Assembly (NCBI GenBank): GCA_017642585.1
Contig: JAGCOR010000019.1
Span: 9,197-73,196, forward strand
Origin: Alphaproteobacteria bacterium
GTDB taxonomy: Bacteria; Pseudomonadota; Alphaproteobacteria; Rs-D84
Length of the DNA: 64,000 nt
Direction of reading: 5' to 3'
Shown one piece after another: positions 101-13,826 of the stretch (the stretch's first letter is position 1; the number at the start of each line of letters is the position of its first letter). The notes below the pieces were generated by a model. That model was not told where the DNA came from. It did no database searches and saw only the letters and a list, made by a program, of their open reading frames with translations. The position numbers and the translations under genes are program-made.

Positions 101-508
101 TTAATCGATAATATATATTCTGCGGTTATTTGCAAAACGTCTTTGGTTTCTTTGTTCTTGACGAACAATAGCGTGTTTCAATATTTTTTTAGCTGTTCTT
201 TTAACAAAAGATGCGCTGGCATCTGGATATGTATTTTGCAATTCAATCATTGTTTGGGCCAAGAAACGTTTTTGATTACATTTTTTATACAAATTAATTT
301 CATTGGAAATTTGTTCTTGAACCTGGGTTAATTCAACCAAACTGATTTCATCATCAGAAAACAAAAAACAATTCCAATTCAATTTTCTGCGTGCCCAAGG
401 AAACAAATTGTAAAACACATCCATGTTATCATACGCCGTTTGAGTATGGCGGATTTTTGCAATTTGTTGGTTCTTTTTATAATTTTCGTCATAACTTAAA
501 CACATCAT
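101..508 (-). CDS. hypothetical protein, 135 aa, no recognisable domain
   Basis: Intact ORF. An AAAGGGG Shine-Dalgarno-like run lies about 6 nt upstream of the ATG pair at 503-508. The shared palindrome (589-603) plus a TAATAT -10 box lie upstream in the gene's orientation. Confidence 0.5.
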   Translation of the reverse strand: MMCLSYDENYKKNQQIAKIRHTQTAYDNMDVFYNLFPWARRKLNWNCFLFSDDEISLVELTQVQEQISNEINLYKKCNQKRFLAQTMIELQNTYPDASASFVKRTAKKILKHAIVRQEQRNQRRFANNRRIYIID

Positions 509-588
509 TTTTTACCCCTTTTGTTGTTATTGTTAAAATCTCGAATCGGCTGTATCGCTTCTTCAAAACAAATATTAATATGTCCAAA

Positions 589-603
589 GGACAAAATTGG
601 TCC
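589..603 (-). promoter_or_regulatory. Palindromic promoter-associated motif, site 1 (minus strand reads GGACCAATTTTGTCC, then 11 nt, then TAATAT)
   Basis: Read directly. The + strand is GGACAAAATTGGTCC. The same 15-mer recurs at 5878, 6839 and 7319, each time with the same spacing to a -10-like hexamer. Confidence 0.6.
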
Positions 604-688: not shown

Positions 689-3600
689 ATGACAGATATA
701 AACAAACAATTATTTACCGCCGTCATTGAAAATAACTCTATTCAAGATATAAAAAAATTATTAGATAATGGGGCGGACGTTAATACAAAAAATGAAGAAC
801 AAGAAACACCTTTGTTCTATGTACAAAATGCAGAAACCACAAAATTTTTGGTTGATAATGGCGCAGATATTAACGCAAAAAATATATACGGACATACACC
901 CGCACTTGTAGCATTAAGCAACGAACGTCCAGGTGTTGCAAAAACTTTAATTGAAATGGGTGCAGACGTCAAAGCAACTGACAATTCTGGTAATACTTTG
1001 TTGCATTTTGCACCATCATTGGATATCGCCGAATTATTAATAAAATTGGGCGCAGATGTTAACGCAAAAACAGAAAGCAATGTAACACCTTTGCATTATG
1101 CAGCAAATGCAGATATTGCTAAACTTTTGATAGACCATGGTGCAGATGTAAATGCAAAAGACGATTTTGGGTTGACACCTTTGTTCACAAATTATGATCC
1201 TGATGCAACCAAGACAAAAATATTGATTGCTAACGGTGCAGAGATAGATGCCACAGATGTGGCGGGCGACACACCTTTGCGTCATACAGACAATATAAAT
1301 GTCGCAAAAGTGTTAATTGAACATGGCGCAAAGGTAAATATGAAAAACAATAATGGATCAACCGTATTACATAACAACTATGACCCTGAACTTGTTCAAT
1401 TTTTAATTGATAACGGCGCAGAGATAGATGCAACGGATAACCTGGGGCAAACACCGTTGCATGTTGCACCAAACGCGGCGGTCGCCCAGGTGTTAATTGA
1501 TAACGGCGCAGATATAAACGCACGCGATGCCAATGGTGCCACCCCACTTCATTGTATTGCATCCCAGACTGGTGACGGGATTGCAGATATAGTACGCGTT
1601 TTGATTAAAAATGGTGCAGAGATAGATGCAAGACGAAAATCATGGCAAGAGGCGTTACAAGATTCTGGTGAATTATGCAATATATCTGGCCCAACCCCTT
1701 TGTTTGATGTACAAAACCCAGATGTTGCACAACTGTTAATTGACAATGGTGCGGATATAAACGCAAAAGACGAAGAAGGCTTCACACCTTTACTTGTCAC
1801 ACAAGATGAAAAAATTGCCAAATTGTTAATTGATAACGGCGCGGATATTTATGTTGAAAGCGATAAAGGTTGCACCGCACTGCACAAGGCACAAAGTATA
1901 GATATCGCTAAATTCTTAATTGATAAAGGACTGGATGTTAATACAGAATGGGAATATCAGGGACCCCCCCTGTGTTGCACAACCGATCTGGAAATTGCTA
2001 AATTGTTAATTGACAATGGTGCAAACATAAATCAAACAGACAAAGATTCATTCGTCCCATTATTTCTTGTAAAAACCCCAGAAATACAGCAATTATTGAT
2101 TGACCGCGGGGCAGATATACATGTTAAATTGGGGGATTTTACCGCTTTACATCATGCAAAAAGTGTACAAATTGCACAATATTTAATAGATGCAGGTTTG
2201 GATGTTAATGCATTGGCTTTCAATAATTATACGCCTTTGGTTTGTACAAACGATATTGAAATTGCAAAACTATTAATTAAAAATGGCGCGAACCCAAATT
2301 TAGAAAATGACAGTGGCGAAACACCTTTGTTTAATGTAACCACCCCAGAAATATGTCAGTTATTAATTGATAATGGTGCGGATATTAATAAAACAAACAT
2401 ACACGATGAAACACCTTTGGCATATCATTCAAGAGGTGGGGACCTTGATGACAATATCGAAATTATCAGGGTGTTAGTTGAAAACGGTGCAAATATACCC
2501 ACACAACCTGTTTTCAATTATCTGTTTGACCCTAAGATTATGCAACTGTTAATCGATGCTGGGACAGATGTTAATGCAAAAAACGACTATGGCGAAACCC
2601 CTTTGTTTTATGCACAAAATTCCCAGATTGCCCAGGTGTTAATTGACAACGGGGCAGATATTAATGCGACAAACAACTGCGGGGCAACGCCATTACTTTA
2701 TCAAAACAAGGCCGATATAAGAAAATTGTTAATTAATAATGGTGCCAATGTAAACGTGAAAGACAAGGATGGTGATACACCATTGCTTTGTGCCAAAGAT
2801 GCAGAAGAAGAACAGATGTTAATTGACCGCGGTGCAGATATTCATGCAATGAATCATGATGGAAAAAACGCCCTGCATAACGTTCACTGTGTTGAAATCG
2901 CCAAATTATTAATTGATAACGGGGTAGATGTTAATGCAACTGATAACGCTGGCAGAACCCCATTACATTATGCTAAAAGCGAAGAAATTGCAAAATTGTT
3001 AATTGATAATGGGGCAAAGATAGACATAAAAGATAATTATGGTGAAACACCGTTGCACAGAGCATCTATAACAGATGTTACTGCATGTTTAATCAAAAAT
3101 GGCGCAGATGTTAATGCAACAAATAACTTTGGGGAAACACCATTGCATGATGTACCAAATACCCAGATTGCACAATTGTTGATAGATCATGGTGCAGATG
3201 TAAATGCAAAAGCCCATAATGGCGACACACCTTTACACCTATCTAATTTTATGAGCGTAAGATGGGATAGAGCTTATTTCAAAGATAATATTACGCAAGT
3301 TTTAATAAACAACGGTGCGGATGTTAACGCAAAAAATAACGAAGGTGAAACACCTTTGTTTACAATAGACAACATAGAAACGGCAAAATTATTAGTCGAA
3401 CATGGTGCAAATATAAACGCAAAAGATAACTATGGAAACACCCCATTACATACAAGCCACGACTATGATACATTGAAATATTTAATAGAATGTGGTGCCG
3501 ATGTAAACGCAAAAAACAATAATGGCGACACCCCTTTGCATTTGTATATAGACAAAGATAGACTTCCCAATAAAATAGAATTATTGATTGAACATGGGGC

Positions 3601-4555
3601 AGATGTAAACGAACAAAACAATGATGGTGATACGCCGTTGCATCGCGCCTACTCTGCTGGCACTATAAACCTGTTGATAAAACACGGTGCAAATGTAAAC
3701 ATCAAAAACAAAAACGGTTGTACACCTTTGCATTATGCATACGATATTGCATGTGCCAGATTGTTGATTGAACACGGTGCAGAGGCAGATACAAAAGACA
3801 ACAACGGACTGTCACCACTGTTTTACACGCAAGAATTTGAAATATTAACCCCACCAAACGTAGAAAATAACAATCGTTTGGCTAAATTAGAAGAATTTTT
3901 GGTCGATAATGGTGCCGATATCCATGGCACACATACGGATGGTGGAACCTTGTTACACTCTATTCACAGTGTTAAAATTGCAAAAATGCTAATTGACCAA
4001 GGTTTTGATGTAAACGCACGAAACGAATATGGTAATACACCTATATTTTGCACAAACAACGTCAAGATTGTGAAATTATTCATTGAACACGGGGCAGATG
4101 TTAATGTTAAAAATAGTTATGGTAATACACCACTGATGGGTCAGGACATTTTTGACATTGCAAAACTTTTGATTGAACACGGGGCAGATGTTAACGCCAC
4201 AAACAACAAAGGTAGAACACCTTTGCATTGCGTCTATAATAAAAACGTCGCCCAATTATTGATTGATAATGGTGCCAAGATAGATGTAAAAGATAACAAT
4301 GGAAATACGCCTTTACATGCGTTAAATACCCCAGAAATGGTACAGTTTTTGATTGAACACGGCGCGAATGTAAACGCCAGAAACAATCAAGGTAAAACCC
4401 CACTGCATTGTTGTGAATGGGGCGAAGATATTGCAAAAATATTGGTTGATAACGGTGCGGATATAAATGCCAAAGATAATGACGGCAAAACGCCTTTGGA
4501 TACAGTGGAAGATCCGGATATAAAAAAATATCTGCAATCTATCGGCGCAAAATAA
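689..4555 (+). CDS. giant ankyrin-repeat protein, 1288 aa, about 40 tandem ANK units
   Basis: By my count about 40 consecutive 32-33 aa units with the consensus (A/V)xLLIxxGA(D/N)(V/I)Nxx(D/N)xxGxTPL(H/F). AAAGGA lies 7 nt before the ATG. The antisense ORFs inside it are repeat artefacts. Confidence 0.95.
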   Translation: MTDINKQLFTAVIENNSIQDIKKLLDNGADVNTKNEEQETPLFYVQNAETTKFLVDNGADINAKNIYGHTPALVALSNERPGVAKTLIEMGADVKATDNSGNTLLHFAPSLDIAELLIKLGADVNAKTESNVTPLHYAANADIAKLLIDHGADVNAKDDFGLTPLFTNYDPDATKTKILIANGAEIDATDVAGDTPLRHTDNINVAKVLIEHGAKVNMKNNNGSTVLHNNYDPELVQFLIDNGAEIDATDNLGQTPLHVAPNAAVAQVLIDNGADINARDANGATPLHCIASQTGDGIADIVRVLIKNGAEIDARRKSWQEALQDSGELCNISGPTPLFDVQNPDVAQLLIDNGADINAKDEEGFTPLLVTQDEKIAKLLIDNGADIYVESDKGCTALHKAQSIDIAKFLIDKGLDVNTEWEYQGPPLCCTTDLEIAKLLIDNGANINQTDKDSFVPLFLVKTPEIQQLLIDRGADIHVKLGDFTALHHAKSVQIAQYLIDAGLDVNALAFNNYTPLVCTNDIEIAKLLIKNGANPNLENDSGETPLFNVTTPEICQLLIDNGADINKTNIHDETPLAYHSRGGDLDDNIEIIRVLVENGANIPTQPVFNYLFDPKIMQLLIDAGTDVNAKNDYGETPLFYAQNSQIAQVLIDNGADINATNNCGATPLLYQNKADIRKLLINNGANVNVKDKDGDTPLLCAKDAEEEQMLIDRGADIHAMNHDGKNALHNVHCVEIAKLLIDNGVDVNATDNAGRTPLHYAKSEEIAKLLIDNGAKIDIKDNYGETPLHRASITDVTACLIKNGADVNATNNFGETPLHDVPNTQIAQLLIDHGADVNAKAHNGDTPLHLSNFMSVRWDRAYFKDNITQVLINNGADVNAKNNEGETPLFTIDNIETAKLLVEHGANINAKDNYGNTPLHTSHDYDTLKYLIECGADVNAKNNNGDTPLHLYIDKDRLPNKIELLIEHGADVNEQNNDGDTPLHRAYSAGTINLLIKHGANVNIKNKNGCTPLHYAYDIACARLLIEHGAEADTKDNNGLSPLFYTQEFEILTPPNVENNNRLAKLEEFLVDNGADIHGTHTDGGTLLHSIHSVKIAKMLIDQGFDVNARNEYGNTPIFCTNNVKIVKLFIEHGADVNVKNSYGNTPLMGQDIFDIAKLLIEHGADVNATNNKGRTPLHCVYNKNVAQLLIDNGAKIDVKDNNGNTPLHALNTPEMVQFLIEHGANVNARNNQGKTPLHCCEWGEDIAKILVDNGADINAKDNDGKTPLDTVEDPDIKKYLQSIGAK

Positions 4556-4567
4556 TATTGTAAAAAA

Positions 4568-4585
4568 ATAACCCGATCGGGTTAT
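4568..4585. terminator. bidirectional rho-independent terminator between convergent genes
   Basis: Perfect palindrome ATAACCCGATCGGGTTAT, flanked by an A-run on the left and a T-run on the right. Confidence 0.7.
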
Positions 4586-4607
4586 TTTTTTATGTCTGTT
4601 TTATCTG

Positions 4608-5831
4608 TTATTTTTCAGATTTATTGTCAGCAAACATTTTTGCCACGGTTGGACTTTTTCTGGTCAGTCTTTTGATTGTCAATTCTTCCACTTTGTTGTT
4701 TGCTTTGTCCAAATTACTGCCAGAACCAATCAAGGCTTCTTTGACTTTTTGTAACCGTTTTATACTGTTATCTATTTCTTGGATTGCATCTGTAAATTTA
4801 GTTTGGGCCAATTTGTATTGTCTGCCAAACCCTGCCTTGAATTCTTCTACTTCTTGTTCAAACTTTGTTACATCTATATTGGTTTGTCTGTATTCAGCAA
4901 TCTGTTTTTTGTATTCTGCATTCTTGGCCGCAGCATTTCGCAACAATGTTATCATAGGAATAAAGAATTGCGGACGAATAACATACATTTTGTCATATCT
5001 GTGTGATACATCTACAATGCCGTTATTGTACAAATCATTGTCAGATTCCAACATAGAAACCAAAACTGCATATTCGCAATTTTTCAAACGTCTGTCTTTG
5101 TCTAATTCAGCAAAGAAATCTTCGTTTTTATGTTTTGATGCGGTTAAATCTGCTTCATTTTTCATTTCAAACATCACAGAAACGGTTTCCACGCCATCTA
5201 CATAATCGCGGAAGATAAAATCGCCCTTGGATCCGCGTTTGTCGCCCTCTTCTTTGACAACTTCATTGTCTTTTTCAAAGTAAGCATTAGGAAACGCAGC
5301 AGAACGTATTTTATTAAATTCGTTCAAACAATGTTGTTCCAAAGATTCCCCAATCATTTTAGTGGACATCTTGGCCTTCATGTCTTTATAGAATGCGATT
5401 TCTTCATCTTTCATTTTAATTTTAATATCGTATTCACTTTGCAAATTGCGTTTTTGTAATTCAGAATCTGCAGCAATCATTTTCAAATTGTTTTCCAATT
5501 CTGCAATTTTTTTGTCTTTTTCAAACAAATCTTCTTTGGTTTTATTTTGGGCTTCAATAACCGCAATTTGTTTGTCTTTTTCACTGGCATCCAGACGGGC
5601 TTTGAATGCATCAATTTGTTTTTGCAAATCTAACAAAGATTGTTCTTTGTCTTGCTTGGCCTGCATTTGCATCAATTTGATTTCGTTTTCCATCTGGGTT
5701 TGATGCTGATGAATTTGATCAGCCACGGCCTTTTCAAATTCGGCATTTCTGATTTGACTTACAATTTCTGCATATCCAGATTCATCTACTGTGAATACTG
5801 TTCCGCATTTTGGGCATTTGATTTCGCGCAT
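4608..5831 (-). CDS. DUF2130-like protein: N-terminal Zn-ribbon, coiled-coil, C-terminal PD-(D/E)XK-like nuclease core
   Basis: CPKCG at the N-terminus and a long E/K/Q-rich heptad-like middle. GDFIFRD...VMFEMKNE fits the D...ExK pattern. Start set to the MREIKCPKCG ATG at 5831 (AAAGGA RBS), because the longer ORF to 5945 would overlap the upstream gene. Confidence 0.75.
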   Translation of the reverse strand: MREIKCPKCGTVFTVDESGYAEIVSQIRNAEFEKAVADQIHQHQTQMENEIKLMQMQAKQDKEQSLLDLQKQIDAFKARLDASEKDKQIAVIEAQNKTKEDLFEKDKKIAELENNLKMIAADSELQKRNLQSEYDIKIKMKDEEIAFYKDMKAKMSTKMIGESLEQHCLNEFNKIRSAAFPNAYFEKDNEVVKEEGDKRGSKGDFIFRDYVDGVETVSVMFEMKNEADLTASKHKNEDFFAELDKDRRLKNCEYAVLVSMLESDNDLYNNGIVDVSHRYDKMYVIRPQFFIPMITLLRNAAAKNAEYKKQIAEYRQTNIDVTKFEQEVEEFKAGFGRQYKLAQTKFTDAIQEIDNSIKRLQKVKEALIGSGSNLDKANNKVEELTIKRLTRKSPTVAKMFADNKSEK

Positions 5832-5877
5832 ATTTAATCCTTTTGTTGTTATGCGATTGTAATTATAATGGGGTAGC

Positions 5878-5892
5878 GGACAAAATTGGTCC
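5878..5892 (-). promoter_or_regulatory. Palindromic promoter-associated motif, site 2 (minus strand GGACCAATTTTGTCC, then 10 nt, then TATAAT)
   Basis: Read directly. It lies 47 nt upstream of the DUF2130-like start codon. The arms extend to GCGGAC...GTCCGC. Confidence 0.6.
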
Positions 5893-5901
5893 GCAGCCTT
5901 T

Positions 5902-6792
5902 TTAAATTGCAACATGAATACGAATTGGTGTCCGCCCCGCATCACTTAACAGCATATCGCCACACGGCAACAACAATTCAGCACCACATTCCCCTAACAA
6001 ACACTTTGATTCAGCATTTGTTTTTGTTTTCAATGCTATCCATGTTGTTAAATTTGCTTTGATTATCCCTGTTATAACAGATTTATCGATATGTTGGGTA
6101 GCCATAATTAAATGCACACCAACACCACGACCATAGGACGCAATAAATTGGACGATTTTTTCCATACTCTTTTTATTTGTAGCGATTAAATCTGCAAATT
6201 CATCAACCATAACTATGATACGGCCAATTTTATTTTTATCAGATTTTTTACAGTTTTTACGTCTGTGGTCGATAATTTCACAAATTTCCTGTAATTTAAT
6301 AATTGCTTTATTTATATCAACAATAACTTCCCTGAATCCATTGTTGTTACATTTTGCAAAATCAACACCTTTGGTATCCATGATCACAATGGAATCTTGT
6401 GGTTTATGATTATGAAGCACAGATTCATATATTGTTTTTAACAGTTCTGTTTTTCCAGATCCTGTTTTTCCACCAATTAATATATGCCCTATTTTATCTA
6501 AATCTCTTACCACTGGATTTCCAAAAACATCTACACCCAACACAACAGGCAATTCATATTTAGATTGCAAAAATTCTTTGGTTTTCAGCAATTTTTTCAA
6601 ATCTGGCAATTCTTGATTTTTATTTGGCATTTCCAATATAATCGAATTAGATTTTGGACAATATTCGGCATAACAGCCCATTTTATTTGCCAATTTCATA
6701 TAATCGCTGTATCGTTCGCCCGGTTTAATATTATAAACAAAGTTTGTAACACGAGGACCGCTGATACATACATTTTCGTTTATTTTAACCAT
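5902..6792 (-). CDS. stand-alone FtsK/SpoIIIE-type ATPase (motor alpha/beta domains only)
   Basis: Walker A GGKTGSGKT, Walker B IIVMVDEFADL, then HLIMATQH and ITGIIKANL, all colinear with the FtsK motor. There is no TM segment and no gamma domain. AGGAG RBS. Confidence 0.8.
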   Translation of the reverse strand: MVKINENVCISGPRVTNFVYNIKPGERYSDYMKLANKMGCYAEYCPKSNSIILEMPNKNQELPDLKKLLKTKEFLQSKYELPVVLGVDVFGNPVVRDLDKIGHILIGGKTGSGKTELLKTIYESVLHNHKPQDSIVIMDTKGVDFAKCNNNGFREVIVDINKAIIKLQEICEIIDHRRKNCKKSDKNKIGRIIVMVDEFADLIATNKKSMEKIVQFIASYGRGVGVHLIMATQHIDKSVITGIIKANLTTWIALKTKTNAESKCLLGECGAELLLPCGDMLLSDAGRTPIRIHVAI

Positions 6793-6838
6793 TTTTATCT
6801 CCTGTGGTTTTGTTTACACACATATTACAATTATCACG

Positions 6839-6853
6839 GGACAAAATCGGTCC
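6839..6853 (-). promoter_or_regulatory. Palindromic promoter-associated motif, site 3 (minus strand GGACCGATTTTGTCC, then 11 nt, then TAATAT)
   Basis: Read directly. One substitution relative to sites 1 and 2. It lies 47 nt upstream of the FtsK-like start codon. Confidence 0.55.
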
Positions 6854-6884
6854 ACCAAAATTTAATTCATATATTTAATTTATA

Positions 6885-7244
6885 TTATCTTATTATTATG
6901 TGTTTGAACCATTGTTCCTGGAACGCGATTTTTTCTTCGATTTGTTCATCTGAAAAATTTTTCCCCTGTGGAACAACTATCAATTTGTCATCATCGTCAT
7001 TTGTTCTGTGAACAACAGCAATACAAACACCATCGAATTCTTGTTTTGCTTCATCAACCCCTAAAACATAGGCATCCAATTCTTCGCCATCACCAGACAC
7101 AGTATTTGGTACAAAACCATAATTTACAGTATATATAAAACCGAATTTTGGATGTTTTGTTCCCAAAGGTCTGTCCATTTTTACATGAATTGGTTTACCT
7201 ATTAAATTATATGGAAATAATGATTTATCAACTGTTTCAGACAT
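6885..7244 (-). CDS. small inorganic-pyrophosphatase-like protein, 119 aa
   Basis: DRPLGTKHP and GDGEELDAYVLG resemble the family I PPase acidic signature D-x-(D/E)-x-x-D. It is much shorter than canonical PPases. AAGGGAG RBS. Confidence 0.55.
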   Translation of the reverse strand: MSETVDKSLFPYNLIGKPIHVKMDRPLGTKHPKFGFIYTVNYGFVPNTVSGDGEELDAYVLGVDEAKQEFDGVCIAVVHRTNDDDDKLIVVPQGKNFSDEQIEEKIAFQEQWFKHIIIR

Positions 7245-7318
7245 TGCGCGCTCCCTTTTTTCGAAATATAAACCACGAAATTTGCGATTTCAACTTATTT
7301 AATTACAAAAATTTTATT

Positions 7319-7333
7319 GGACCAATTTTGTCT
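7319..7333 (+). promoter_or_regulatory. Palindromic promoter-associated motif, site 4 (+ strand GGACCAATTTTGTCT, then 11 nt, then TACAAT)
   Basis: Read directly, 14 of 15 match. It lies in the divergent region between the PPase-like gene and the MBL gene, oriented toward the MBL gene. Confidence 0.55.
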
Positions 7334-7391
7334 ATAAACATATATACAATGAAAATGAAAAAAACAAAAATTTGAAAAAAAAGAGTCGAAA

Positions 7392-8636
7392 ATGAAAATA
7401 TGTGTATATCGTGGAACAAATGAAATTGGTGGTAACTGTATAGAAATATCTACAAATAAAACCCGTATTTTATTAGATATTGGAACACCATTATCATCAA
7501 TGAATGAAAAGAACCCGCTGGAAACCTATAAAAATTCATGTTGTGGTGTATATAAAGAGGACACCCCAACCATAGATGCAATTTTTATCAGTCACACCCA
7601 TCGCGATCATTATGGTTTATTGCCAATAATAAATGCAAAAATACCTGTGTATATGTCAAAAATTACACATGATATTTTAACCAAAATAGAACCTTTGTTG
7701 CCTGATGATTTTGATGTTTCTAATTTAGATATTCATGAAATTGATTCAAAACAAACAATTAAAATCAAAGATTTAAAAATCACTGCTTTTGCAGTAGACC
7801 ACATCCCAGGCGCAATGGCATATGAAATAACAGACGGCAAAAAACGCATTGTTTACACTGGCGATTTCAGATTTCATTCAAATCAAAAATGGAAATCATG
7901 GGCTTTGGCAGATTTAGCCAACAATCCGGATTATTTGATAATGGAAGGAACCCGCCTGTCGCGCACCGAAGACATCGAAAAATATAACACGGAAAATTCT
8001 GTTTATCGTGCAATTACAAAATTATTGCTTAATTCACACAATATCGCATTTGCCAGTTTTTCTTCACAAAATCTGGACAGATTGGTTTCTTTTATCAAGG
8101 CCAGTATCGCATCAAATCGCACTTTAGTAATTGATCCATATACCGCCGCTTTGATGGATGTGTTTAATAATGTGTTTCCAACTGTCCCGACTGTTGATAT
8201 GTTACCAAACATCAAAATATATTTTGGCACCAGTGAATCTATCGCAACAAAAATGAAAAAAAACGGTTTGTTTTATAAACACAAAAACAAGAAAATTACC
8301 AAGGAAGAAATATTGGCGAATCCCCACAATTTCATTTTAAAGCATAACAAGAAATTAACAGATTGGTTGTTAAAGAAAGGTGTTGATAATTATGATTTTG
8401 TTTATTCTATGTGGCATGGATATCTGGATTCGCAAAACACATGGGATGAATACAAAGAACATATAACAGAAATTCACACATCGGGGCATGCGGATGTTGC
8501 TAATTTACAAAAATTTGTAAAACGCATCAAACCCAAAACAATCATCCCCGTTCATACTGAATGTAAAAATGATTTCAAAGAAAAATTTAATATCAACACA
8601 TTGGTATTAAATGATAACGAACCCATGAAATTATAG
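7392..8636 (+). CDS. MBL-fold metallo-hydrolase of the beta-CASP nuclease type
   Basis: HTHRDHYG (HxHxDH motif). DFRFHS and a late HTSGHA resemble beta-CASP motifs. Confidence 0.75.
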   Translation: MKICVYRGTNEIGGNCIEISTNKTRILLDIGTPLSSMNEKNPLETYKNSCCGVYKEDTPTIDAIFISHTHRDHYGLLPIINAKIPVYMSKITHDILTKIEPLLPDDFDVSNLDIHEIDSKQTIKIKDLKITAFAVDHIPGAMAYEITDGKKRIVYTGDFRFHSNQKWKSWALADLANNPDYLIMEGTRLSRTEDIEKYNTENSVYRAITKLLLNSHNIAFASFSSQNLDRLVSFIKASIASNRTLVIDPYTAALMDVFNNVFPTVPTVDMLPNIKIYFGTSESIATKMKKNGLFYKHKNKKITKEEILANPHNFILKHNKKLTDWLLKKGVDNYDFVYSMWHGYLDSQNTWDEYKEHITEIHTSGHADVANLQKFVKRIKPKTIIPVHTECKNDFKEKFNINTLVLNDNEPMKL

Positions 8637-8645
8637 GAACAAACC

Positions 8646-9371
8646 ATGTCAGAAAACAAAGAAAATCCAAAACCGAGAACCGGCGAATTAACCAACATCA
8701 TCAACAGCAAAAATCTGGATGCTTTGCGTGAATACCTGAACAACACACCACGTGATATAGTTATGAAAAAAGACGAAAACGGACGTGATGCGTTATACGA
8801 TGCGGTATTTACTGGTGATGTAAAAATTATTGATGCTTTAATAACATATGGTTTTGATCCCATGAACATAGACAAATTAACCGGGGCCACGGCTTTGCAT
8901 CTGTCTGCTTCAGAAGCACATTTTGATGCAGTGGTATTGTTGTCGGATGTGTTAAGGTTGAATACAAACGCCACAGACAACGATGGCTTTACACCACTGT
9001 ATTATGCATTTATGTTTTTAATAAATGAAGATGGTTCAATCAGTGAACCACATTTAGATGCCGCATGGGCTTTGGTCAGGAACGGTGCAAAATTTCAACC
9101 AAAAATGTTAGGCTTGTTACCGGAAATTGAACAATTACATATTGCCCTTATCAAAGATATTCATGTCATCATGCGCAAAAACCGCCAAACCTGTTTAAAA
9201 TATGTACCAAATATGATCAAATTTTTACAAGATTCGTTAAATACATATTCTGACTTTTGCAAACGAACCGAGGGTAAATCTGACGAAGAAATAGAAAAGA
9301 TTATTCAAACCAATTTCATGTCAGATACCCTAAATAAACCCACAAAAAATTTAGATTTTCTGTGGAAATAA
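8646..9371 (+). CDS. ankyrin-repeat protein, 241 aa
   Basis: Three to four ANK-like units (GRDALYDAV..., GATALHLSA..., DGFTPLYYA...). It starts 9 nt after the MBL stop codon, so probably shares an operon with it. Confidence 0.7.
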   Translation: MSENKENPKPRTGELTNIINSKNLDALREYLNNTPRDIVMKKDENGRDALYDAVFTGDVKIIDALITYGFDPMNIDKLTGATALHLSASEAHFDAVVLLSDVLRLNTNATDNDGFTPLYYAFMFLINEDGSISEPHLDAAWALVRNGAKFQPKMLGLLPEIEQLHIALIKDIHVIMRKNRQTCLKYVPNMIKFLQDSLNTYSDFCKRTEGKSDEEIEKIIQTNFMSDTLNKPTKNLDFLWK

Positions 9372-9377
9372 AATTGG

Positions 9378-10766
9378 TTATGCAATTTTGATTTCTGTAT
9401 CGACTTTGATGTTTTTTGCAAACATTTCATCATGCGAAACCAACAATATCGCCCCCCGATATTGATTCAGTGCATCTTCCAATATCGATATGCTTTTGAT
9501 TTCCAGATTGTTTGTAGGTTCGTCTAAAATCAATAAATCAGGTTGTTCATTTCCACCCAAAACCGCGGCTAATGTTGCCTTTAACAATTCACCTCCGGAC
9601 AACACGCCAGCGGTTTTCATAGCATCTTTACCACGAAATCCAAAATTAGCAGCAATTGCATGGGCATCATGTTTTAACACATTGGCAATATCCATTATAT
9701 TTTCAATTATGGTTTTATTTTTATCCAACACAGACAAATCCTGATTCAAATATGCTATTTTGCCGAATGTTTTGACCGTTCCACCATTTGCCTTTAAATC
9801 TCCACGAATTATTTTCAACAAAGTTGTTTTGCCTGCCCCATTTTTACCCATTAAACGAACCCGCATTCCGCCATACATAGTAAAATCAAAATTATCAAAA
9901 ATTTTGTTATCACCATATGCAAAAGATAAAGATTTAATTTGAATCAATTCTTTGCTGTAAAAACTTTTATTTGGCACGGGTATTTTAATTTTGTCGTCAT
10001 GCATTTTATCCGTCAAAGATTGCTGAATCTGTAATTGTTCTTCCAATTTCTTTTGAATAATCGCACGTTTTTTTGCCTCGGTTTCTTGGCTTTTGCCCTT
10101 CAAAGCATTTGCAGCCAATCTACTGCGTTTGCCGTTTTTCATATCTTTCTTTTGCTTCGCTTCGTGATGTTGACGTGTGTTTTGTGCGATATTCAATGTA
10201 TTATTTAATCGCCCTATTTCCTTTTGGGCATCAATATATTTGGAATACATATTTTCTTGTTCTGCATTTTTCTGGGTGACATAGAAATCATAATTACCGC
10301 CATATATTTTTATATAACCATTTGATATTTCCAAAATCTTGTCCATTTGCTGTAATAATTCCCTGTCGTGCGAAACAATCACAGCCCCAAACGGATACAT
10401 ACTTAAATCGGTGAAAAATTTTTGACGCGCATCAAAATCTAAATTATTAGTCGGTTCGTCCAACAATAGAATTTGTGCATTGCTATCAAAAGCACGCGCC
10501 AATTCATAACTTTGTTGTTCACCACCACTTTTAGAATCAGCCACATTTATTTGTTTTACCATATAAATTGACGCATTACGCACAACATCACCAGAATCAG
10601 GCAATATATCCCCCGCCAACAATTTTAACAGGGTTGTTTTGCCACAACCATTATCGCCTATGATTGCGACTTTGTCTGAATCATTAAAGACAATTGAAAC
10701 ACCGTCAAACAAATTGTTTGTTGAATCATATCCAAAAAATATATCTGATAAAGAAATATAAAACAT
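9378..10766 (-). CDS. ABC-F family ATPase (two tandem ABC domains, no TM)
   Basis: First domain: GDNGCGKTT, SGGEQQ, LLLDEPTNNLD. Second domain: GKNGAGKTT, LSGGELLK, LILDEPTNNLE. Start set at MFYISL (10766). The ORF track extends to 10805. Confidence 0.85.
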   Translation of the reverse strand: MFYISLSDIFFGYDSTNNLFDGVSIVFNDSDKVAIIGDNGCGKTTLLKLLAGDILPDSGDVVRNASIYMVKQINVADSKSGGEQQSYELARAFDSNAQILLLDEPTNNLDFDARQKFFTDLSMYPFGAVIVSHDRELLQQMDKILEISNGYIKIYGGNYDFYVTQKNAEQENMYSKYIDAQKEIGRLNNTLNIAQNTRQHHEAKQKKDMKNGKRSRLAANALKGKSQETEAKKRAIIQKKLEEQLQIQQSLTDKMHDDKIKIPVPNKSFYSKELIQIKSLSFAYGDNKIFDNFDFTMYGGMRVRLMGKNGAGKTTLLKIIRGDLKANGGTVKTFGKIAYLNQDLSVLDKNKTIIENIMDIANVLKHDAHAIAANFGFRGKDAMKTAGVLSGGELLKATLAAVLGGNEQPDLLILDEPTNNLEIKSISILEDALNQYRGAILLVSHDEMFAKNIKVDTEIKIA

Positions 10767-10939
10767 AACAAAACCTTTAATGTTGTAAATTAAACTGACA
10801 AGCATATTTTCATATGCACAATTTTTAAATCAAGATTACAACATTATTTGCTCACTGGTTTTGTCCTTTGTTTTTATTACGCAACTTTATGCTAATATAA
10901 AAAACCCAAAAATCAAGAAAATATGATTATTGCCATTTT

Positions 10940-12721
10940 TTATTTATTATCTTTTGGTAATAATACAGCCTTGATTCTTCTGACACCTGCAGAACTGGAT
11001 TCTTCTTTCAATATTTTGAAAGTTCCCAATTCTCCAGTATTATTAGCATGAGGTCCGCCACAAATTTCATGTGACCATTTACCCATTTTGTAAACTTTAA
11101 CCACTTCGCCATATTTATCACCAAACACACCGATTGCACCGGAAGCGCGCGCTTCTTCAATAGGCATTTCAGTGCATTCAATTGGAACATTTTCAGCGAT
11201 GGCCTGGTTCACTTGTTTTTCCACTTCTGCCAATTCTGCTGGTTCTATACGTCTGTCAAAAGACACATCAAAACGCAAACGTTCAGGTGTAATATTTGAA
11301 CCCTTTTGCATAACTGAATCGCCCAAAATACGACGCAACGCAGCCAACATTAAATGCGCCGCAGTGTGTAAACGTCTGGTTTCAATAGAATCATCAGACA
11401 AACCACCTTTGAATTTTTGTTCTGCACCCGCGCGAGATTTTTCCTGGTGTTCTGCGAACAATTTATGAAATCCTTCTGCGTCTACTTTGACCCCGTATTC
11501 ATTTGCCAATTCTTGTGTGAATTCCAATGGGAAACCAAATGTATCGTACAATCTAAACGTATCAGCCGCAGCCAATTGATTGTCTGTTACATTTTCCAAA
11601 TATTTTTTCGCAATCTTCATCCCAGATTCCAAAGTGCGTGAGAAAATTTCTTCTTCACGATCCAAAGATTTGATAACAAATTCACGATTGCGTTCCAATT
11701 CAGGATATATATCTTTGTAATGTTCAATAACCACCTTGGCAATTTCAACCATAGAATGTGCCGGTGCATTCATTTGTGTCAAATAGCGATATGCACGACG
11801 GATTAAACGACGCAAGATATAACCTTGGTCTACATTAGATGGAACAATACCGCGATTATCACCCATAACAAAAGTTGATGCACGCAAATGATCCGCGATA
11901 ATGCGATATGCCTTGTAATGTTCAGGTTCATATTTTGTTCCGGTCAATTCGCTGATTTTATCAATAATAGGTTTGAATAATTCTGTGTCATAAACACTGG
12001 AAACACCGTTCACAAAACAAAAAGCACGTTCAAATCCCAAACCGGTATCAACATTGTGGCGACCCAAACTGGTATAATTACCATCTTTGTCTTTGTGATA
12101 TTCCATAAACACATTGTTCCAAATTTCAACATATTTACCACAATTACATGCAGGCCCACAATTTGGTCCACAATCTGGTTGATCGTGGATATAGAAAATT
12201 TCAGTATCAGGTCCACAAGGTCCAGTTGTTCCCGCAGGTCCCCACCAATTTTCTTTTTTACCATAAAAGAATATGCGTTCTTTTGGATAACCCAAACTTT
12301 CCCAAATTTGTGCAGATTCTGTATCGCGTGGTGCAGATTCATCGCCAGCAAAACAAGTAACAGCAATTTTTTCCTGGGGGATTTTTAAAACCTGGGTTAA
12401 AAATTCATGTGAAAAACCAATAGATTCTTTTTTGAAATAATCATTCAAAGACCAATTTCCCAACATTTCAAAAAATGTTAAATGGGTGGCATCGCCTACT
12501 TCATCAATATCACCAGTGCGCAGGCATTTTTGACAACTGACCAAACGTTTTCCCAATGGGTGTGATTCCCCCATCAAATAAGGCACCAAAGGATGCATTC
12601 CCGCAGTTGTAAATAAAACCGAAGGGTCGTTTTCTGGTATCAAAGATGCGGAAGCAATTTCATGGTGTCCACGTTTTACAAAGAAATCTATATAAAGCCT
12701 ACGTAATTCATTTGCTGTCAT
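10940..12721 (-). CDS. alaS: alanine--tRNA ligase, short form lacking the C-Ala domain
   Basis: The N-terminus LRRLYIDFFVKRGHHEIASASLIP...LFTTAGM is typical of AlaRS. Editing-domain motifs HTAAHL and CGGPH are present, and the protein ends about 35 aa after the latter. Alternative start at 12739. Confidence 0.9.
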   Translation of the reverse strand: MTANELRRLYIDFFVKRGHHEIASASLIPENDPSVLFTTAGMHPLVPYLMGESHPLGKRLVSCQKCLRTGDIDEVGDATHLTFFEMLGNWSLNDYFKKESIGFSHEFLTQVLKIPQEKIAVTCFAGDESAPRDTESAQIWESLGYPKERIFFYGKKENWWGPAGTTGPCGPDTEIFYIHDQPDCGPNCGPACNCGKYVEIWNNVFMEYHKDKDGNYTSLGRHNVDTGLGFERAFCFVNGVSSVYDTELFKPIIDKISELTGTKYEPEHYKAYRIIADHLRASTFVMGDNRGIVPSNVDQGYILRRLIRRAYRYLTQMNAPAHSMVEIAKVVIEHYKDIYPELERNREFVIKSLDREEEIFSRTLESGMKIAKKYLENVTDNQLAAADTFRLYDTFGFPLEFTQELANEYGVKVDAEGFHKLFAEHQEKSRAGAEQKFKGGLSDDSIETRRLHTAAHLMLAALRRILGDSVMQKGSNITPERLRFDVSFDRRIEPAELAEVEKQVNQAIAENVPIECTEMPIEEARASGAIGVFGDKYGEVVKVYKMGKWSHEICGGPHANNTGELGTFKILKEESSSAGVRRIKAVLLPKDNK

Positions 12722-12840
12722 TTTTTTTGCCTTTAACATTAAAAATTTTGTCGTTTTTTATGTGTGGTATTCTAAACACTCTTTTGATTAAAGTCAATAA
12801 AATACACATATTTATTGCTATATTTGAAACAATAAAAAAA

Positions 12841-12855
12841 TGCCCAAACGGGCAT
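12841..12855 (-). terminator. rho-independent terminator downstream of the 12859-13683 gene
   Basis: TGCCC-aaac-GGGCA hairpin, followed on the minus strand by a run of T. Confidence 0.6.
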
Positions 12856-12858
12856 TTC

Positions 12859-13683: not shown

Positions 13684-13826
13684 GTTTAATCTCCTTGGCA
13701 GCGAACGCATTATAACACATTAAAAAAAATAAGTAAAAAAAACGGGGATTTTTTTTGTTTACATATTTTTTTTAGTATAATAGCATAATTGTATCGGTTA
13801 TATTGCATACAAAGAAAGGATATATC

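What the first reader, a model, noticed from the sequence alone, without database searches (positions are those of the whole stretch)
4608..9371. Candidate uncharacterised co-regulated nucleic-acid-processing module
The genes tied together by the shared operator are all predicted DNA or RNA/nucleotide enzymes:
- a Zn-ribbon + coiled-coil + D...ExK nuclease-fold protein (DUF2130-like);
- an FtsK/HerA-type translocase motor with no membrane anchor and no gamma domain;
- a 119-aa pyrophosphatase-like protein retaining the acidic GDGEELD signature;
- a beta-CASP MBL nuclease, translationally adjacent to a small ankyrin protein.

Each has its own copy of the promoter/operator instead of sitting in a single operon. 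I cannot match this combination to any named defence, repair or conjugation system I know.

Defence systems such as the HerA-containing ones combine a translocase ATPase with nucleases, so an anti-phage or anti-plasmid role, or a damage-inducible repair role, is plausible.
Basis: inference. Interest (0 to 1): 0.7.

Follow-up and report, generated by a model that had tools for sequence, protein, structure and literature searches.

The report
DriD-type DNA-damage regulon gene island
A cluster of uncharacterised nuclease and ATPase genes in an uncultured alphaproteobacterium shares a 15-bp promoter element that matches the binding site of DriD, a known DNA-damage-sensing activator, and a DriD homologue is encoded about 2.7 kb beyond the window's start.

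Summary
The genes, their domain assignments and the shared 15-bp palindrome (GGACCAATTTTGTCC) are real. The window has four copies, all within its first 7.4 kb; chance predicts 0.12. The pyrophosphatase-like gene has no copy of its own. The module is larger than the finding's coordinates. A fourth window copy serves a conserved 135-aa gene at 101-508. On the same contig, just upstream of the window, lie a wHTH-WYL-WCX regulator and a fifth copy in front of a double AAA+ ATPase. The regulator's only relatives among solved structures are Caulobacter DriD entries. The box keeps DriD's essential bases (G2, C4, G12, C14) and AT-rich centre. It sits 11 nt (10 in one promoter) upstream of a -10 hexamer, in promoters without a -35, as I read the published DriD promoters. 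Box, regulator and genes recur together in lineages with 40-65% protein identity. The best explanation is a DriD-type, probably ssDNA/DNA-damage-activated regulon packed into an island of uncharacterised DNA-processing enzymes. A phage-defence role remains possible. The regulatory logic is known; the gene content is not described in the papers I could search, including a core of beta-CASP MBL nuclease, PD-(D/E)xK partner, WYL regulator and AAA+ ATPase found well beyond this lineage. In the window the PD-(D/E)xK partner gene has been deleted.

The parts
101..508 (-). p135: conserved 135-aa all-helical protein of unknown function. It has its own DriD-type promoter and lies outside the finding's coordinates.
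   Evidence: 43% identical homologue with its own box in L006 and in L040. The family has only 42 clusters among 1.84 billion representatives. AF2 model pLDDT is 78, with no fold match.
572..603 (-). Box 1 (589-603, GGACCAATTTTGTCC on the - strand), an 11-nt gap, then -10 TAATAT (572-577). This is the promoter of p135.
   Evidence: On the + strand, toward the giant ankyrin gene, no TAnnnT lies at the activating distance.
4559..4594 (.). Bidirectional intrinsic-terminator-like hairpin between the giant ankyrin gene and the DUF2130 gene. It marks the end of the PPase-FtsK-DUF2130 gene string.
4608..5831 (-). DUF2130 protein (407 aa): one CxxC knuckle, a ~150-aa coiled coil, and a PD-(D/E)xK-superfamily domain. 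It resembles RmuC in architecture.
   Evidence: Pfam PF09903 E 3.8e-83. DUF2130 is listed in the PD-(D/E)XK superfamily in PMC3424549. There is no sequence relative in the PDB. A 58% identical orthologue has its own box in L119.
5862..5892 (-). Box 2 (5878-5892), a 10-nt gap, then -10 TATAAT (5862-5867). This is the promoter of the DUF2130 gene.
   Evidence: Conserved in L011.
5902..6792 (-). Short FtsK/HerA-type P-loop ATPase (296 aa). It is a motor domain only, with no TM anchor and no gamma domain.
   Evidence: Pfam FtsK_SpoIIIE E 3.5e-22. Matches the FtsK motor 2IUS at 2e-39. NCBIfam FtsK scores 137 bits against a cut-off of 1566. Walker A and B are present and no TM segment is found.
6822..6853 (-). 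Box 3 (6839-6853, GGACCGATTTTGTCC), an 11-nt gap, then -10 TAATAT (6822-6827). This is the promoter of the FtsK-like gene.
   Evidence: Conserved in L011, L038 and, as GGACCATTTTTGTCT+11+TATACT, in L006.
6885..7244 (-). 119-aa truncated family-I pyrophosphatase-like protein. It keeps the metal-binding Asp clusters. It is syntenic with the module but has no box of its own.
   Evidence: PF00719 E 5.8e-9. PDB PPases match at best 4e-5. NCBIfam scores 28.7 bits against a cut-off of 200. An orthologue lies next to the MBL gene in L040. A sigma-70-like promoter match lies at 7293..7265.
7319..7350 (+). Box 4 (7319-7333, GGACCAATTTTGTCT), an 11-nt gap, then -10 TACAAT (7345-7350). This is the promoter of the MBL-ankyrin operon.
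   Evidence: The same arrangement occurs in L011, L038 and L039. Related boxes lie upstream of MBL operons in L037 and L049.
7392..8636 (+). beta-CASP metallo-beta-lactamase-fold nuclease (414 aa). It belongs to the EF2904 (PDB 2AZ4) family and is not an RNase J orthologue.
   Evidence: Pfam Lactamase_B_2 and RMMBL. The family has 2124 hits, with HxHxDH, H137, D158, H362 and H388 invariant. PDB 2AZ4 matches at 5.8e-41 and RNase J at 1e-23. RNase J NCBIfam scores 90 bits against a cut-off of 820.
8625..8676 (.). Deletion scar. The relative L011 carries 1077 nt here, including a 316-aa PD-(D/E)xK-like partner gene; the window has 51 nt.
   Evidence: blastn of window against L011. The partner gene is present next to the MBL gene in L006, L011, L035, L036, L118 and L119, and in 25 adjacent ORFs among the 88 loci that carry an MBL gene.
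8646..9371 (+). Ank241: 241-aa ankyrin-repeat protein and a conserved module member. In other lineages it is fused to a degenerate FtsK-like domain.
   Evidence: Pfam Ank_2. It is 44% identical to the N-terminal half of the L035 462-aa protein, whose C-terminal half aligns to the FtsK-like ATPase (27%, 8e-11) but lacks Walker A and B. The same fusion is seen in L118 and L119.

Best explanation
The region is part of a compact regulon, about 18 kb long, controlled by a DriD-type transcription activator with wHTH, three-helix-bundle, WYL and WCX domains. The 347-aa regulator is encoded about 2.7 kb upstream of window position 1 on the same contig, divergent from a double AAA+ ATPase gene.

Shown:
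- Its predicted site is the 15-bp pseudo-palindrome NGAC-N7-GTCN (GGACCAATTTTGTCC here).
- That site sits 11 nt (once 10 nt) upstream of a -10 hexamer at five promoters: the AAA+ gene, p135, DUF2130, the FtsK-like gene and the MBL-ankyrin operon.
- All five promoters lack a -35 element.

Inferred, by analogy with Caulobacter DriD:
- The regulator is inactive until its WYL domain binds a nucleic-acid signal, most likely ssDNA made during DNA damage or foreign-DNA replication.
- It then binds the boxes and recruits RNA polymerase to these otherwise weak promoters.
- The induced products are DNA-processing enzymes: a beta-CASP MBL nuclease, normally paired with a PD-(D/E)xK nuclease that this strain has lost; an RmuC-like DUF2130 nuclease; an anchorless FtsK-type translocase working with the ankyrin protein; and an AAA+ unfoldase.
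- These enzymes process or degrade damaged or invading DNA.

The pyrophosphatase-like gene is a syntenic accessory with its own sigma-70-like promoter match.
For: Operator:
- Four copies in the window against 0.12 expected, all in 7.4 kb. A fifth lies on the same contig between the WYL and AAA+ genes.
- All five have TAnnnT 10-11 nt downstream. The only other match to the pattern is the reverse reading of box 2, which points at no gene. The three other GAC-N7-GTC occurrences in the 64 kb fit chance (6.6 expected) and lack a -10 at that distance.
- The position where a -35 would lie reads CAATTT.

Regulator:
- L032 13215-14258 carries WYL and WCX domains.
- Its only PDB relatives, and those of the L006 homologue, are DriD entries (1e-15 and 8e-27). 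No PafBC, BrxR or CapW chain matches at E<=1.

Box compared with DriD:
- The DriD consensus is C1G2x3C4-N7-G12x13C14G15, with G2, C4, G12 and C14 essential and an AT-rich centre (PMC10853764). The window box keeps all four bases and the AT-rich centre.
- The recognition-helix residues Arg37/Glu40/Arg41 are K/Y/R here, K/E/R in L006 and R/E/R in a rumen lineage. A CGAC-N7-GTCG box was seen upstream of the AAA+ gene in one rumen-lineage locus, L012.

Geometry:
- In the published didA and CCNA_03891 promoter oligos, I place the 15-bp core 11 nt from the -10 hexamer. This is my reading from the -10 consensus given in the paper.
- The paper states that DriD promoters lack a -35 and carry the box at a fixed distance from the -10 (PMC13004042).
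- As in Caulobacter, the box in the regulator's divergent region is oriented toward the neighbouring gene rather than toward the regulator.

Conservation:
- Boxes with the same 11-nt geometry precede the FtsK-like gene, p131, the 53-aa/AAA+ operon and a 65-aa gene in L006 (FtsK 43% identical).
- They also precede the 280aa-MBL-FtsK operon in L037, p135 in L040, the MBL gene in L049, and the AAA+ and DUF2130 genes in L119.

Gene linkage:
- L119 holds AAA+, WYL, DUF2130, MBL, PD-(D/E)xK and Ank-FtsK* within 10 kb.
- Of 17 metagenome loci with at least 3 kb on both sides of the MBL gene, 8 carry a WYL regulator and 4 the AAA+ gene.
Against: - No expression or binding data exist; the organism is uncultured.
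- Positions 1 and 15 of the box are G/C rather than DriD's C/G. Arg37 is Lys. Glu40 is Tyr in this lineage.
- Of DriD's ssDNA-contact residues, only Tyr192, Arg204 and the equivalents of Trp206 and Arg207 align as conserved or similar. Arg176, Arg178, Lys202, Tyr240 and Arg288 do not. The ligand may therefore differ.
- The window-genome regulator has a ~20-aa insertion in its HTH, and its N-terminus did not align to DriD by phmmer.
- A site over the -35/spacer region is also where a repressor would bind.
- In L006 the box upstream of the MBL-PDEXK-WYL operon is reversed and abuts the -10. In L118 the geometry is unclear.
- Tight clustering of a regulon, with variable accessory genes, is more typical of defence islands than of DNA-repair regulons.
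- Only part of the genome was searched for further boxes: the 64-kb window and the fetched 21-kb and 20-kb stretches of the 90-kb contig.
Confidence: 0.65

Rival explanations
1. The cluster is an anti-phage or anti-plasmid defence island held off by a CapW/BrxR-like WYL repressor. The WYL protein sits on the boxes and blocks RNA polymerase. ssDNA or DNA damage during infection releases it. The nucleases and ATPases then attack invading or host DNA, as in abortive infection.
For: - WYL regulators of defence systems sense ssDNA and act as repressors (PMC11662680, listed).
- The boxes overlap the -35/spacer region.
- The genes are tightly clustered, with lineage-variable accessories.
- The FtsK-like ATPase gives domain-level PADLOC hits to SspH, mad8 and HerA. 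The AAA+ protein gives a sub-threshold hit to the anti-phage ATPase IteA.
- A sibling strain has a frameshifted DUF2130 gene and the window has lost the PD-(D/E)xK gene, a turnover typical of defence genes.
- The module region is 90.8% identical to L011, against 97.9% for the flanking housekeeping genes.
Against: - No PADLOC model matches a whole protein, and four of the six module proteins scanned have no hit at all.
- The regulator matches only DriD among solved WYL proteins, not CapW or BrxR.
- The promoters lack a -35 and mostly lack an extended -10, so they would be weak even when derepressed.
- The box-to-(-10) distance equals that of DriD-activated promoters.
- No MBL-family relative was found in 2.9 million viral contigs, so there is no sign of a phage arms-race origin.
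- The function (defence) and the regulatory mode (activator) are separable questions. A DriD-type activated defence system is also possible.
Confidence: 0.2
2. The genes are unrelated housekeeping enzymes that happen to be neighbours: an RNase J-like RNA-processing nuclease, an inorganic pyrophosphatase and a reduced FtsK. The palindrome is a generic promoter or repeat element of this AT-rich genome.
For: Each protein has a housekeeping superfamily relative: RNase J, Ppa and FtsK. Flanking genes are housekeeping: ABC-F, AlaRS and transketolase.
Against: - All scores lie far below the curated orthologue cut-offs: 90 against 820, 29 against 200, and 137 against 1566 bits.
- The palindrome occurs nowhere else in 64 kb.
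- It is conserved in position across lineages with 43-63% protein identity, always in front of the same gene families.
- The genes travel together with a dedicated regulator.
Confidence: 0.04
3. The cluster is a remnant of a mobile element, conjugative or prophage. The FtsK-like protein would be a coupling or packaging ATPase, the nucleases would process transfer DNA, and the WYL protein would be the element's regulator.
For: - Short FtsK-like ATPases at 30-35% identity occur in 307 phage records.
- The 248-aa homologue in L010 sits beside terminase and ParB-methylase genes.
- There are NCBIfam domain-level hits to TraD, VirB4 and EccC.
Against: - No integrase, relaxase, capsid or terminase gene lies in or beside the cluster in the window, L032, L006, L011 or L119.
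- GC content matches the surrounding chromosome.
- The MBL family is absent from viral contigs.
- Synteny with AlaRS and ABC-F is conserved between lineages.
Confidence: 0.04

Closest known systems
Caulobacter crescentus DriD regulon (SOS-independent DNA-damage response; targets didA, bapE, recJ, dnaG, CCNA_03891/01149)
   Same: - A homodimer-type wHTH-3HB-WYL-WCX regulator.
- A 15-bp core with conserved G2, C4, G12 and C14 and an AT-rich centre.
- The box overlaps the missing -35, 11 nt from the -10 hexamer by my reading of the published oligos.
- One box lies in the regulator's divergent intergenic region and points at the neighbouring gene.
- A nuclease is among the targets (bapE in Caulobacter).
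- Both hosts are Alphaproteobacteria.
   Different: - The flanking bases are GGAC/GTCC rather than CGAC/GTCG.
- The DNA-reading residues are K/Y/R rather than R/E/R.
- ssDNA-contact residues are only partly kept.
- The targets are entirely different gene families, and they are clustered in one island of about 18 kb rather than scattered.
- The regulator shares an operon with an HSP70-like ATPase and a 440-aa protein.
Mycobacterial PafBC, Acinetobacter DdaA and M. smegmatis SiwR (other WYL activators of DNA-damage responses)
   Same: These are WYL-domain activators that switch on damage-response genes. ssDNA sensing is reported for PafBC. PafBC's box replaces the -35 element (sigma adaptation, which I recall from the literature and which the PMC11804915 abstract mentions).
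   Different: No detectable sequence match to PafB/C chains in the PDB search. PafBC is a heterodimer with a different motif. Their regulons include recA and classical repair genes, none of which is seen here.
CapW/BrxR WYL repressors of CBASS and BREX defence systems
   Same: A wHTH-WYL-WCX regulator sits next to nucleic-acid-targeting effector genes, binds palindromic operators, and has an ssDNA or damage signal.
   Different: They are repressors, usually with a single operator in front of one operon. There is no sequence match in the PDB search. The effector genes here are not CBASS or BREX components.
EF2904 (PDB 2AZ4) family of stand-alone beta-CASP MBL proteins; RNase J, CPSF73 and SNM1/Apollo/Artemis
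   Same: The MBL protein has the full HxHxDH and beta-CASP motif set. 2AZ4 is its best solved relative (5.8e-41). The SNM1/Artemis branch shows that beta-CASP enzymes can be DNA-repair nucleases.
   Different: EF2904 has no assigned function. The window protein lacks RNase J's C-terminal domain and scores far below the RNase J cut-off. Its substrate, DNA or RNA, is unknown.
HerA/FtsK-nuclease pairs in defence and repair (HerA-NurA, Sir2-HerA, SspH/DndH C-terminal ATPase)
   Same: An anchorless FtsK/HerA-clade ATPase is encoded beside nucleases. There are PADLOC domain hits to SspH (4e-30), mad8 and HerA.
   Different: The hits cover only the P-loop domain. No partner genes of those systems (Sir2, NurA, SspB-E, DndB-H) are present. 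The apparent partner here is an ankyrin protein.
RmuC (PF02646), compared with the DUF2130 protein
   Same: An N-terminal coiled coil plus a C-terminal PD-(D/E)xK domain. Both are listed in the same superfamily survey (PMC3424549).
   Different: It is a different Pfam family. No function is known for DUF2130. No direct sequence match was tested.

Membership tests
DriD-type WYL activator regulon | Regulator with wHTH, three-helix bundle, WYL and WCX domains | tested here: met
   L032 13215-14258: Pfam WYL 4.6e-5 and WCX 7e-5. Residues 94-333 align to DriD 3HB-WYL-WCX. The L006 homologue aligns over its full length, 9-328. The window-lineage N-terminal HTH aligns only by MAFFT and carries a 20-aa insertion.
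DriD-type WYL activator regulon | Regulator closer to DriD than to other WYL regulators | tested here: met
   The only PDB matches at E<=1 are DriD entries (9PFQ, 8TP8, 9CU3, 7TZV, 7U02). No PafBC, BrxR or CapW chain matches.
DriD-type WYL activator regulon | Binding site C1G2x3C4-N7-G12x13C14G15 with essential G2, C4, G12 and C14 and an AT-rich centre | tested here: met
   GGACCAATTTTGTCC keeps G2, C4, G12, C14 and the AT-rich centre. Positions 1 and 15 are G/C rather than C/G; the paper reports these as less critical.
DriD-type WYL activator regulon | Box at a fixed distance from the -10, overlapping the place of an absent -35 | tested here: met
   The gap is 11 nt (10 in one case) in all five promoters of this genome. 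It is also 11 nt in L006 (4 sites), L037, L040, L049 and L119 (2 sites). I read 11 nt in the didA and CCNA_03891 oligos. This rests on sequence only; transcription start sites are not mapped.
DriD-type WYL activator regulon | Base-reading residues Arg37, Glu40 and Arg41 in the recognition helix | tested here: inconclusive
   The window lineage has K/Y/R and L006 has K/E/R. A rumen lineage has R/E/R, and one of its loci (L012) shows a CGAC-N7-GTCG box. Arg41 is kept. Arg37 to Lys is conservative. Glu40 to Tyr coincides with the changed base at position 1.
DriD-type WYL activator regulon | ssDNA-binding residues of the WYL/WCX pocket (Tyr168, Arg176, Arg178, Tyr192, Arg204, Arg207, Tyr240, Arg288) | tested here: inconclusive
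   Tyr192 and Arg204 are kept, and Arg207 becomes Lys. Arg176, Arg178, Tyr240 and Arg288 are not kept in the MAFFT/phmmer alignments. The alignment is uncertain at 25-30% identity.
DriD-type WYL activator regulon | A box in the regulator's own, bidirectional promoter region | tested here: met
   The box at L032 14343-14357 lies between the WYL gene (-) and the AAA+ gene (+) and is oriented toward the AAA+ gene. L119 has the same arrangement.
DriD-type WYL activator regulon | Activation of target genes by DNA damage or ssDNA | not testable with these tools
   This needs binding, reporter or transcriptome experiments.
Known anti-phage defence systems (PADLOC-DB 2.0) | Full-length match of the component proteins to a system's models, with the system's partner genes present | tested here: not met
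   Only P-loop domain-level hits were found for the FtsK-like protein (SspH, mad8, HerA) and generic ankyrin hits. DUF2130, PPase, MBL and p135 have no hit.
RNase J / FtsK / inorganic pyrophosphatase (housekeeping orthologues) | Score above the curated NCBIfam equivalog cut-off | tested here: not met
   RNase J1 scores 90 against 820 bits, FtsK 137 against 1566, and PPase 28.7 against 200.
DUF2130 (PF09903, PD-(D/E)xK superfamily) | Pfam gathering score and a D...ExK motif | tested here: met
   279 bits against a cut-off of 26.7. The motif GDFIF...FEMK is read from the translation. Superfamily assignment is from PMC3424549.

The most novel reading that the evidence does not exclude
The beta-CASP MBL nuclease, its adjacent PD-(D/E)xK partner, the DriD-like WYL sensor-activator and the double AAA+ ATPase form one previously undescribed functional system found from Alphaproteobacteria to rumen and Caldisericota lineages. 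The ankyrin/FtsK-like translocase, DUF2130 and p135 are lineage-specific accessories. The system would be switched on by ssDNA and would then resect, repair or deliberately destroy DNA. That would make it a new damage-tolerance or suicide/defence pathway rather than a loose regulon of independent genes.
Probability: 0.3. Interest if true: 0.75.

Novelty: new variant of a known kind. Interest (0 to 1): 0.58.

Why it matters
WYL-domain activators (PafBC, DriD, DdaA, SiwR) have only recently been recognised as SOS-independent DNA-damage switches. Their regulons are known in a handful of culturable species.

This locus shows a DriD-type switch in an uncultured, ankyrin-rich alphaproteobacterium. 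It drives a compact island made entirely of uncharacterised enzymes. Its core of MBL nuclease, PD-(D/E)xK partner, WYL regulator and AAA+ ATPase recurs across distant lineages.

That gives several orphan families a testable context, namely response to ssDNA or DNA damage:
- DUF2130
- the EF2904-type beta-CASP proteins
- an anchorless FtsK motor with an ankyrin partner
- a 135-aa helical protein

The predicted operator-regulator pair can be tested directly in vitro. The locus also tests whether DriD-type promoter geometry (box, 11 nt, then -10, with no -35) holds outside Caulobacter.

Tried and rejected
1. LexA/SOS box. I considered it from memory. The motif matches no LexA consensus I know. 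I dropped it once a WYL regulator was found inside the homologous cluster.
2. ECF-sigma promoter or terminator hairpin. The box at 5876-5894 scores as a terminator-like hairpin, but only on the + strand, which is not the strand of the genes it lies between. The other copies lack the extended stem.
3. The 135-aa protein as the regulator. It has no HTH or Pfam hit, and its all-helical model has no fold match. This remains unresolved; a WYL regulator explains the boxes better.
4. The genome-contig scan with the full MBL alignment was swamped by the generic HxHxDH pattern. It gave only one true relative plus one distant one. Repeating it on metagenomes with a C-terminal-only alignment worked.
5. 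The look-up of the 407-aa DUF2130 protein found nothing, because the gene callers used the upstream start.
6. Phage origin. The viral-contig scan for the MBL family was empty. Phage FtsK-like hits are generic.
7. A link between the second family of MBL-adjacent upstream ORFs (L037 280 aa, L040 249 aa) and the 311/316-aa PD-(D/E)xK family. hhalign gave E 0.006 over 40 columns, which is not convincing.
8. A literature search for 'WYL' plus 'beta-CASP' found nothing relevant. 'DUF2130' appears in four papers, none functional.

Full report
**What is in the sequence**

The interval 4608-9371 holds five genes:
- A DUF2130 protein at 4608-5831(-). The start is the ATG at 5831, giving 407 aa; Pfam E is 3.8e-83.
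- A 296-aa FtsK/HerA-type ATPase at 5902-6792(-).
- A 119-aa pyrophosphatase-like protein at 6885-7244(-).
- A 414-aa beta-CASP metallo-beta-lactamase (MBL) protein at 7392-8636(+).
- A 241-aa ankyrin protein at 8646-9371(+).

- The ATPase has Walker A (GKTGSGKT) and Walker B (IIVMVDE), no hydrophobic segment and no gamma domain. It matches the FtsK motor 2IUS at 2e-39.
- The MBL protein has every MBL and beta-CASP motif residue invariant across 19 relatives. Its best solved relative is the uncharacterised EF2904 (2AZ4, 5.8e-41), ahead of RNase J.
- The small protein keeps the NYGF...GDGEELD and DDDDK acidic clusters of family-I pyrophosphatases but is truncated at both ends.
- DUF2130 is listed in the PD-(D/E)XK superfamily (PMC3424549). 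Its 'Zn ribbon' is a single CxxC.

None of the five reaches a curated NCBIfam cut-off. No PADLOC model matches beyond a P-loop or ankyrin domain.

The organism is an uncultured alphaproteobacterium. Its AlaRS clusters at 90% identity with NCBI proteins named 'MAG: Alphaproteobacteria bacterium'. The window lies on a 90-kb metagenome scaffold.

**The shared operator**

GGAC-N7-GTCC occurs three times exactly and once with one mismatch, against 0.12 expected. The copies are at 589-603, 5878-5892, 6839-6853 and 7319-7333, and nowhere else in the 64 kb.

Read in the direction of the downstream gene, each copy is GGACC(A/G)ATTTTGTC(C/T). A TAnnnT hexamer follows after 11 nt:
- TAATAT at 572-577
- TAATAT at 6822-6827
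- TACAAT at 7345-7350
- TATAAT at 5862-5867, after 10 nt in this one case

The place where a -35 would lie falls inside the box and reads CAATTT.

Three other GAC-N7-GTC strings in the window are what chance predicts (6.6 expected), and they lack the -10.

- The first copy belongs to a 135-aa gene at 101-508(-), not to the giant ankyrin gene.
- The pyrophosphatase-like gene has no copy of its own. It has a sigma-70-like TTGAAA-17-TATATT match at 7293..7265.

**The regulator and the true extent of the module**

Relatives were found by exact-protein look-up and by scanning metagenomes.

In L006-L009 the FtsK-like protein is 43% identical and the MBL protein 61%. The order there is MBL, a 311-aa protein, an HTH-WYL-WCX regulator, the FtsK-like ATPase, a 131-aa protein, a 53-aa protein and a double AAA+ ATPase. 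The 131-aa protein is 43% identical to the window's 135-aa protein. Boxes (G/A)GACCAWWTTTGTCT, each followed after 11 nt by a -10, precede the FtsK-like gene, the 131-aa gene, the 53-aa/AAA+ operon and a further 65-aa gene. A reversed copy abuts the -10 of the MBL-311aa-WYL operon.

I then extended the window's own contig (L032). This showed, 2.7-3.7 kb upstream of window position 1:
- a 347-aa WYL+WCX protein, in an operon with a 440-aa protein and an HSP70-like ATPase;
- divergent from it, a 698-aa double AAA+ ATPase that is 52% identical to the L006 protein;
- between the two, a fifth box (GGACCAATTTTGTCC, 11 nt, TAGTAT) pointing at the AAA+ gene.

**Comparison with DriD**

Both WYL proteins match only Caulobacter DriD among all PDB sequences (1e-15 and 8e-27). 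No PafBC, BrxR or CapW chain appears at E<=1.

What the DriD papers report:
- DriD binds XC1G2X3C4-N7-G12X13C14G15X.
- G2, C4, G12 and C14 are essential and the centre is AT-rich.
- The site is read by Arg37, Arg41 and, at position 1, Glu40 (PMC10853764).

How the window compares:
- Its box keeps G2, C4, G12, C14 and the AT-rich centre.
- Only positions 1 and 15 differ.
- In a MAFFT alignment the recognition helix reads K/Y/R in the window lineage and K/E/R in L006. It reads R/E/R in a rumen lineage, and one locus of that lineage, L012, shows a canonical CGAC-N7-GTCG box upstream of its AAA+ gene.

DriD-activated promoters lack a -35 and carry the box at one fixed distance from the -10 (PMC13004042). 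From the didA and CCNA_03891 oligonucleotides printed in that paper, and its stated -10 consensus, I place the 15-bp core 11 nt from the -10 hexamer in both. That is the spacing seen here. As in Caulobacter, the box in the regulator's divergent region points at the neighbouring gene, not at the regulator.

The ssDNA-contact residues are only partly conserved. Tyr192 and Arg204 are kept and Arg207 becomes Lys. Arg176 and Arg178 are not kept. The ligand is therefore inferred, not shown.

L011 is about 90% identical over the module. It has the same genes plus a 316-aa gene between the MBL and ankyrin genes. The window has a clean 1.03-kb deletion at that spot, 8625-8676. This 311/316-aa family has no Pfam hit, but by eye it shows a D...E-x-K motif. 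It is adjacent to the MBL gene in 25 ORFs among the 88 loci that carry an MBL gene.

L119 is an NCBI MAG with MBL 63% and DUF2130 58% identical. It carries, within 10 kb, the AAA+ gene divergent from the WYL gene with a box, DUF2130 with its own box, then 241aa-MBL-PD-(D/E)xK-Ank.

L040 (MBL 63% identical) carries the mini-pyrophosphatase, the MBL gene and a boxed p135.

L037 has a boxed 280aa-MBL-FtsK-like operon.

In L035, L118 and L119 the Ank241 orthologue (37-44% identical) is fused to an FtsK-like domain. In L035 that domain has lost Walker A and B. This fusion links the window's separate ankyrin and FtsK-like genes.

More distant MBL loci, at 26-40% identity from rumen, sediment and Caldisericota samples, carry WYL and AAA+ neighbours. 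Of the 17 loci with at least 3 kb on each side, 8 have a WYL gene and 4 the AAA+ gene.

The MBL family was not found on viral contigs.

**Interpretation**

Shown:
- a conserved cluster;
- a conserved box at a fixed promoter position;
- a DriD-homologous regulator encoded in the cluster.

Inferred:
- The regulator activates these -35-less promoters when its WYL domain binds ssDNA or a related signal.
- The products then act on DNA. These are the beta-CASP nuclease with or without its PD-(D/E)xK partner, the RmuC-like DUF2130 protein, the FtsK-type motor with its ankyrin partner, and the AAA+ ATPase.

Whether the outcome is repair, controlled self-destruction (Caulobacter's DriD target bapE is a precedent) or defence against phage cannot be decided from sequence.

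The main rival is a CapW/BrxR-style repressor guarding a defence island:
- In its favour: the clustering, the lineage-variable accessories, gene loss in close strains and faster divergence of the module than of its flanks.
- Against it: the DriD-specific homology, the activator-type promoter geometry and the lack of any defence-model match.

**Verdict**

- The interpretation as an unknown co-regulated nucleic-acid module is right in substance. The control system, however, is a recognisable DriD-type WYL switch.
- The novelty lies in the regulon's content and in the widely conserved association of MBL, PD-(D/E)xK, WYL and AAA+ genes. I found no description of this association in the searchable literature.

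Noticed in passing
window 689-4555 (+): A 1288-aa protein made almost entirely of ankyrin repeats sits between the boxed p135 gene and the DUF2130 gene, splitting the module. Box 1 is not in activating geometry for it. The genome seems rich in ankyrin genes, which is typical of intracellular symbionts of eukaryotes.
   Followed up: partly
L002 7217-8551 / L034 (sibling strain, 99.7-99.98% identical to the window): The DUF2130 gene carries a net 61-nt deletion between short repeats in its coiled-coil region. The deletion frameshifts it into 132-aa and 290-aa pieces. Either the gene is dispensable or this is an assembly artefact.
   Followed up: partly
window 4563-14000 compared with L011: Identity is mosaic: 90.8% across the module (4563-8625), 97.9% across Ank-ABC-F-AlaRS (8676-12860), then 90.9% again. 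L011 also has an extra 155-aa acetyltransferase gene. This suggests recombination or faster evolution of the module.
   Followed up: no
window 10940-12739 (-): The alanyl-tRNA synthetase is only 599 aa (588-635 aa across its 90% cluster). By my recollection bacterial AlaRS is about 870 aa, so the C-terminal (C-Ala) part appears to be missing.
   Followed up: no
L032 10574-13204 (just upstream of window position 1): The WYL regulator is co-oriented, and apparently co-transcribed, with a 440-aa protein that has no family match and a 431-aa HSP70/MreB-like ATPase. This pair was not seen next to the regulator in other lineages.
   Followed up: partly
L040 8290-8716: The long intergenic region upstream of the 249aa-MBL operon holds two copies of a ~48-nt element (cccaagctg...ttcgcca.tcaacc...gggaaaacg) and two extra DriD-like boxes (8165-8179, 8450-8464). 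It could be a small RNA, a repeat element or a decayed gene.
   Followed up: no
L010 (NCBI GCA_045647355.1) 10001-10747: A 248-aa FtsK-like homologue (46% identical to the L006 protein) sits in a prophage-like stretch with terminase and ParB-methyltransferase genes, without MBL or WYL neighbours. The short FtsK motor therefore also circulates independently of the module.
   Followed up: partly
L012 17698-17845 and the WYL alignment: The box flank and the regulator's residue 40 may co-vary. The rumen-lineage regulators keep Glu40, and locus L012 shows CGAC/GTCG flanks; the window lineage has GGAC/GTCC flanks and Tyr40. L006, with Glu40 and GGAC/AGAC flanks, does not fit cleanly.
   Followed up: partly
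L118 5339-6070: A 243-aa NERD plus topoisomerase-type Zn-ribbon protein lies 3 kb from the MBL-PD-(D/E)xK-Ank operon in the 66% identical lineage. It is another nuclease-superfamily gene near the module.
   Followed up: no
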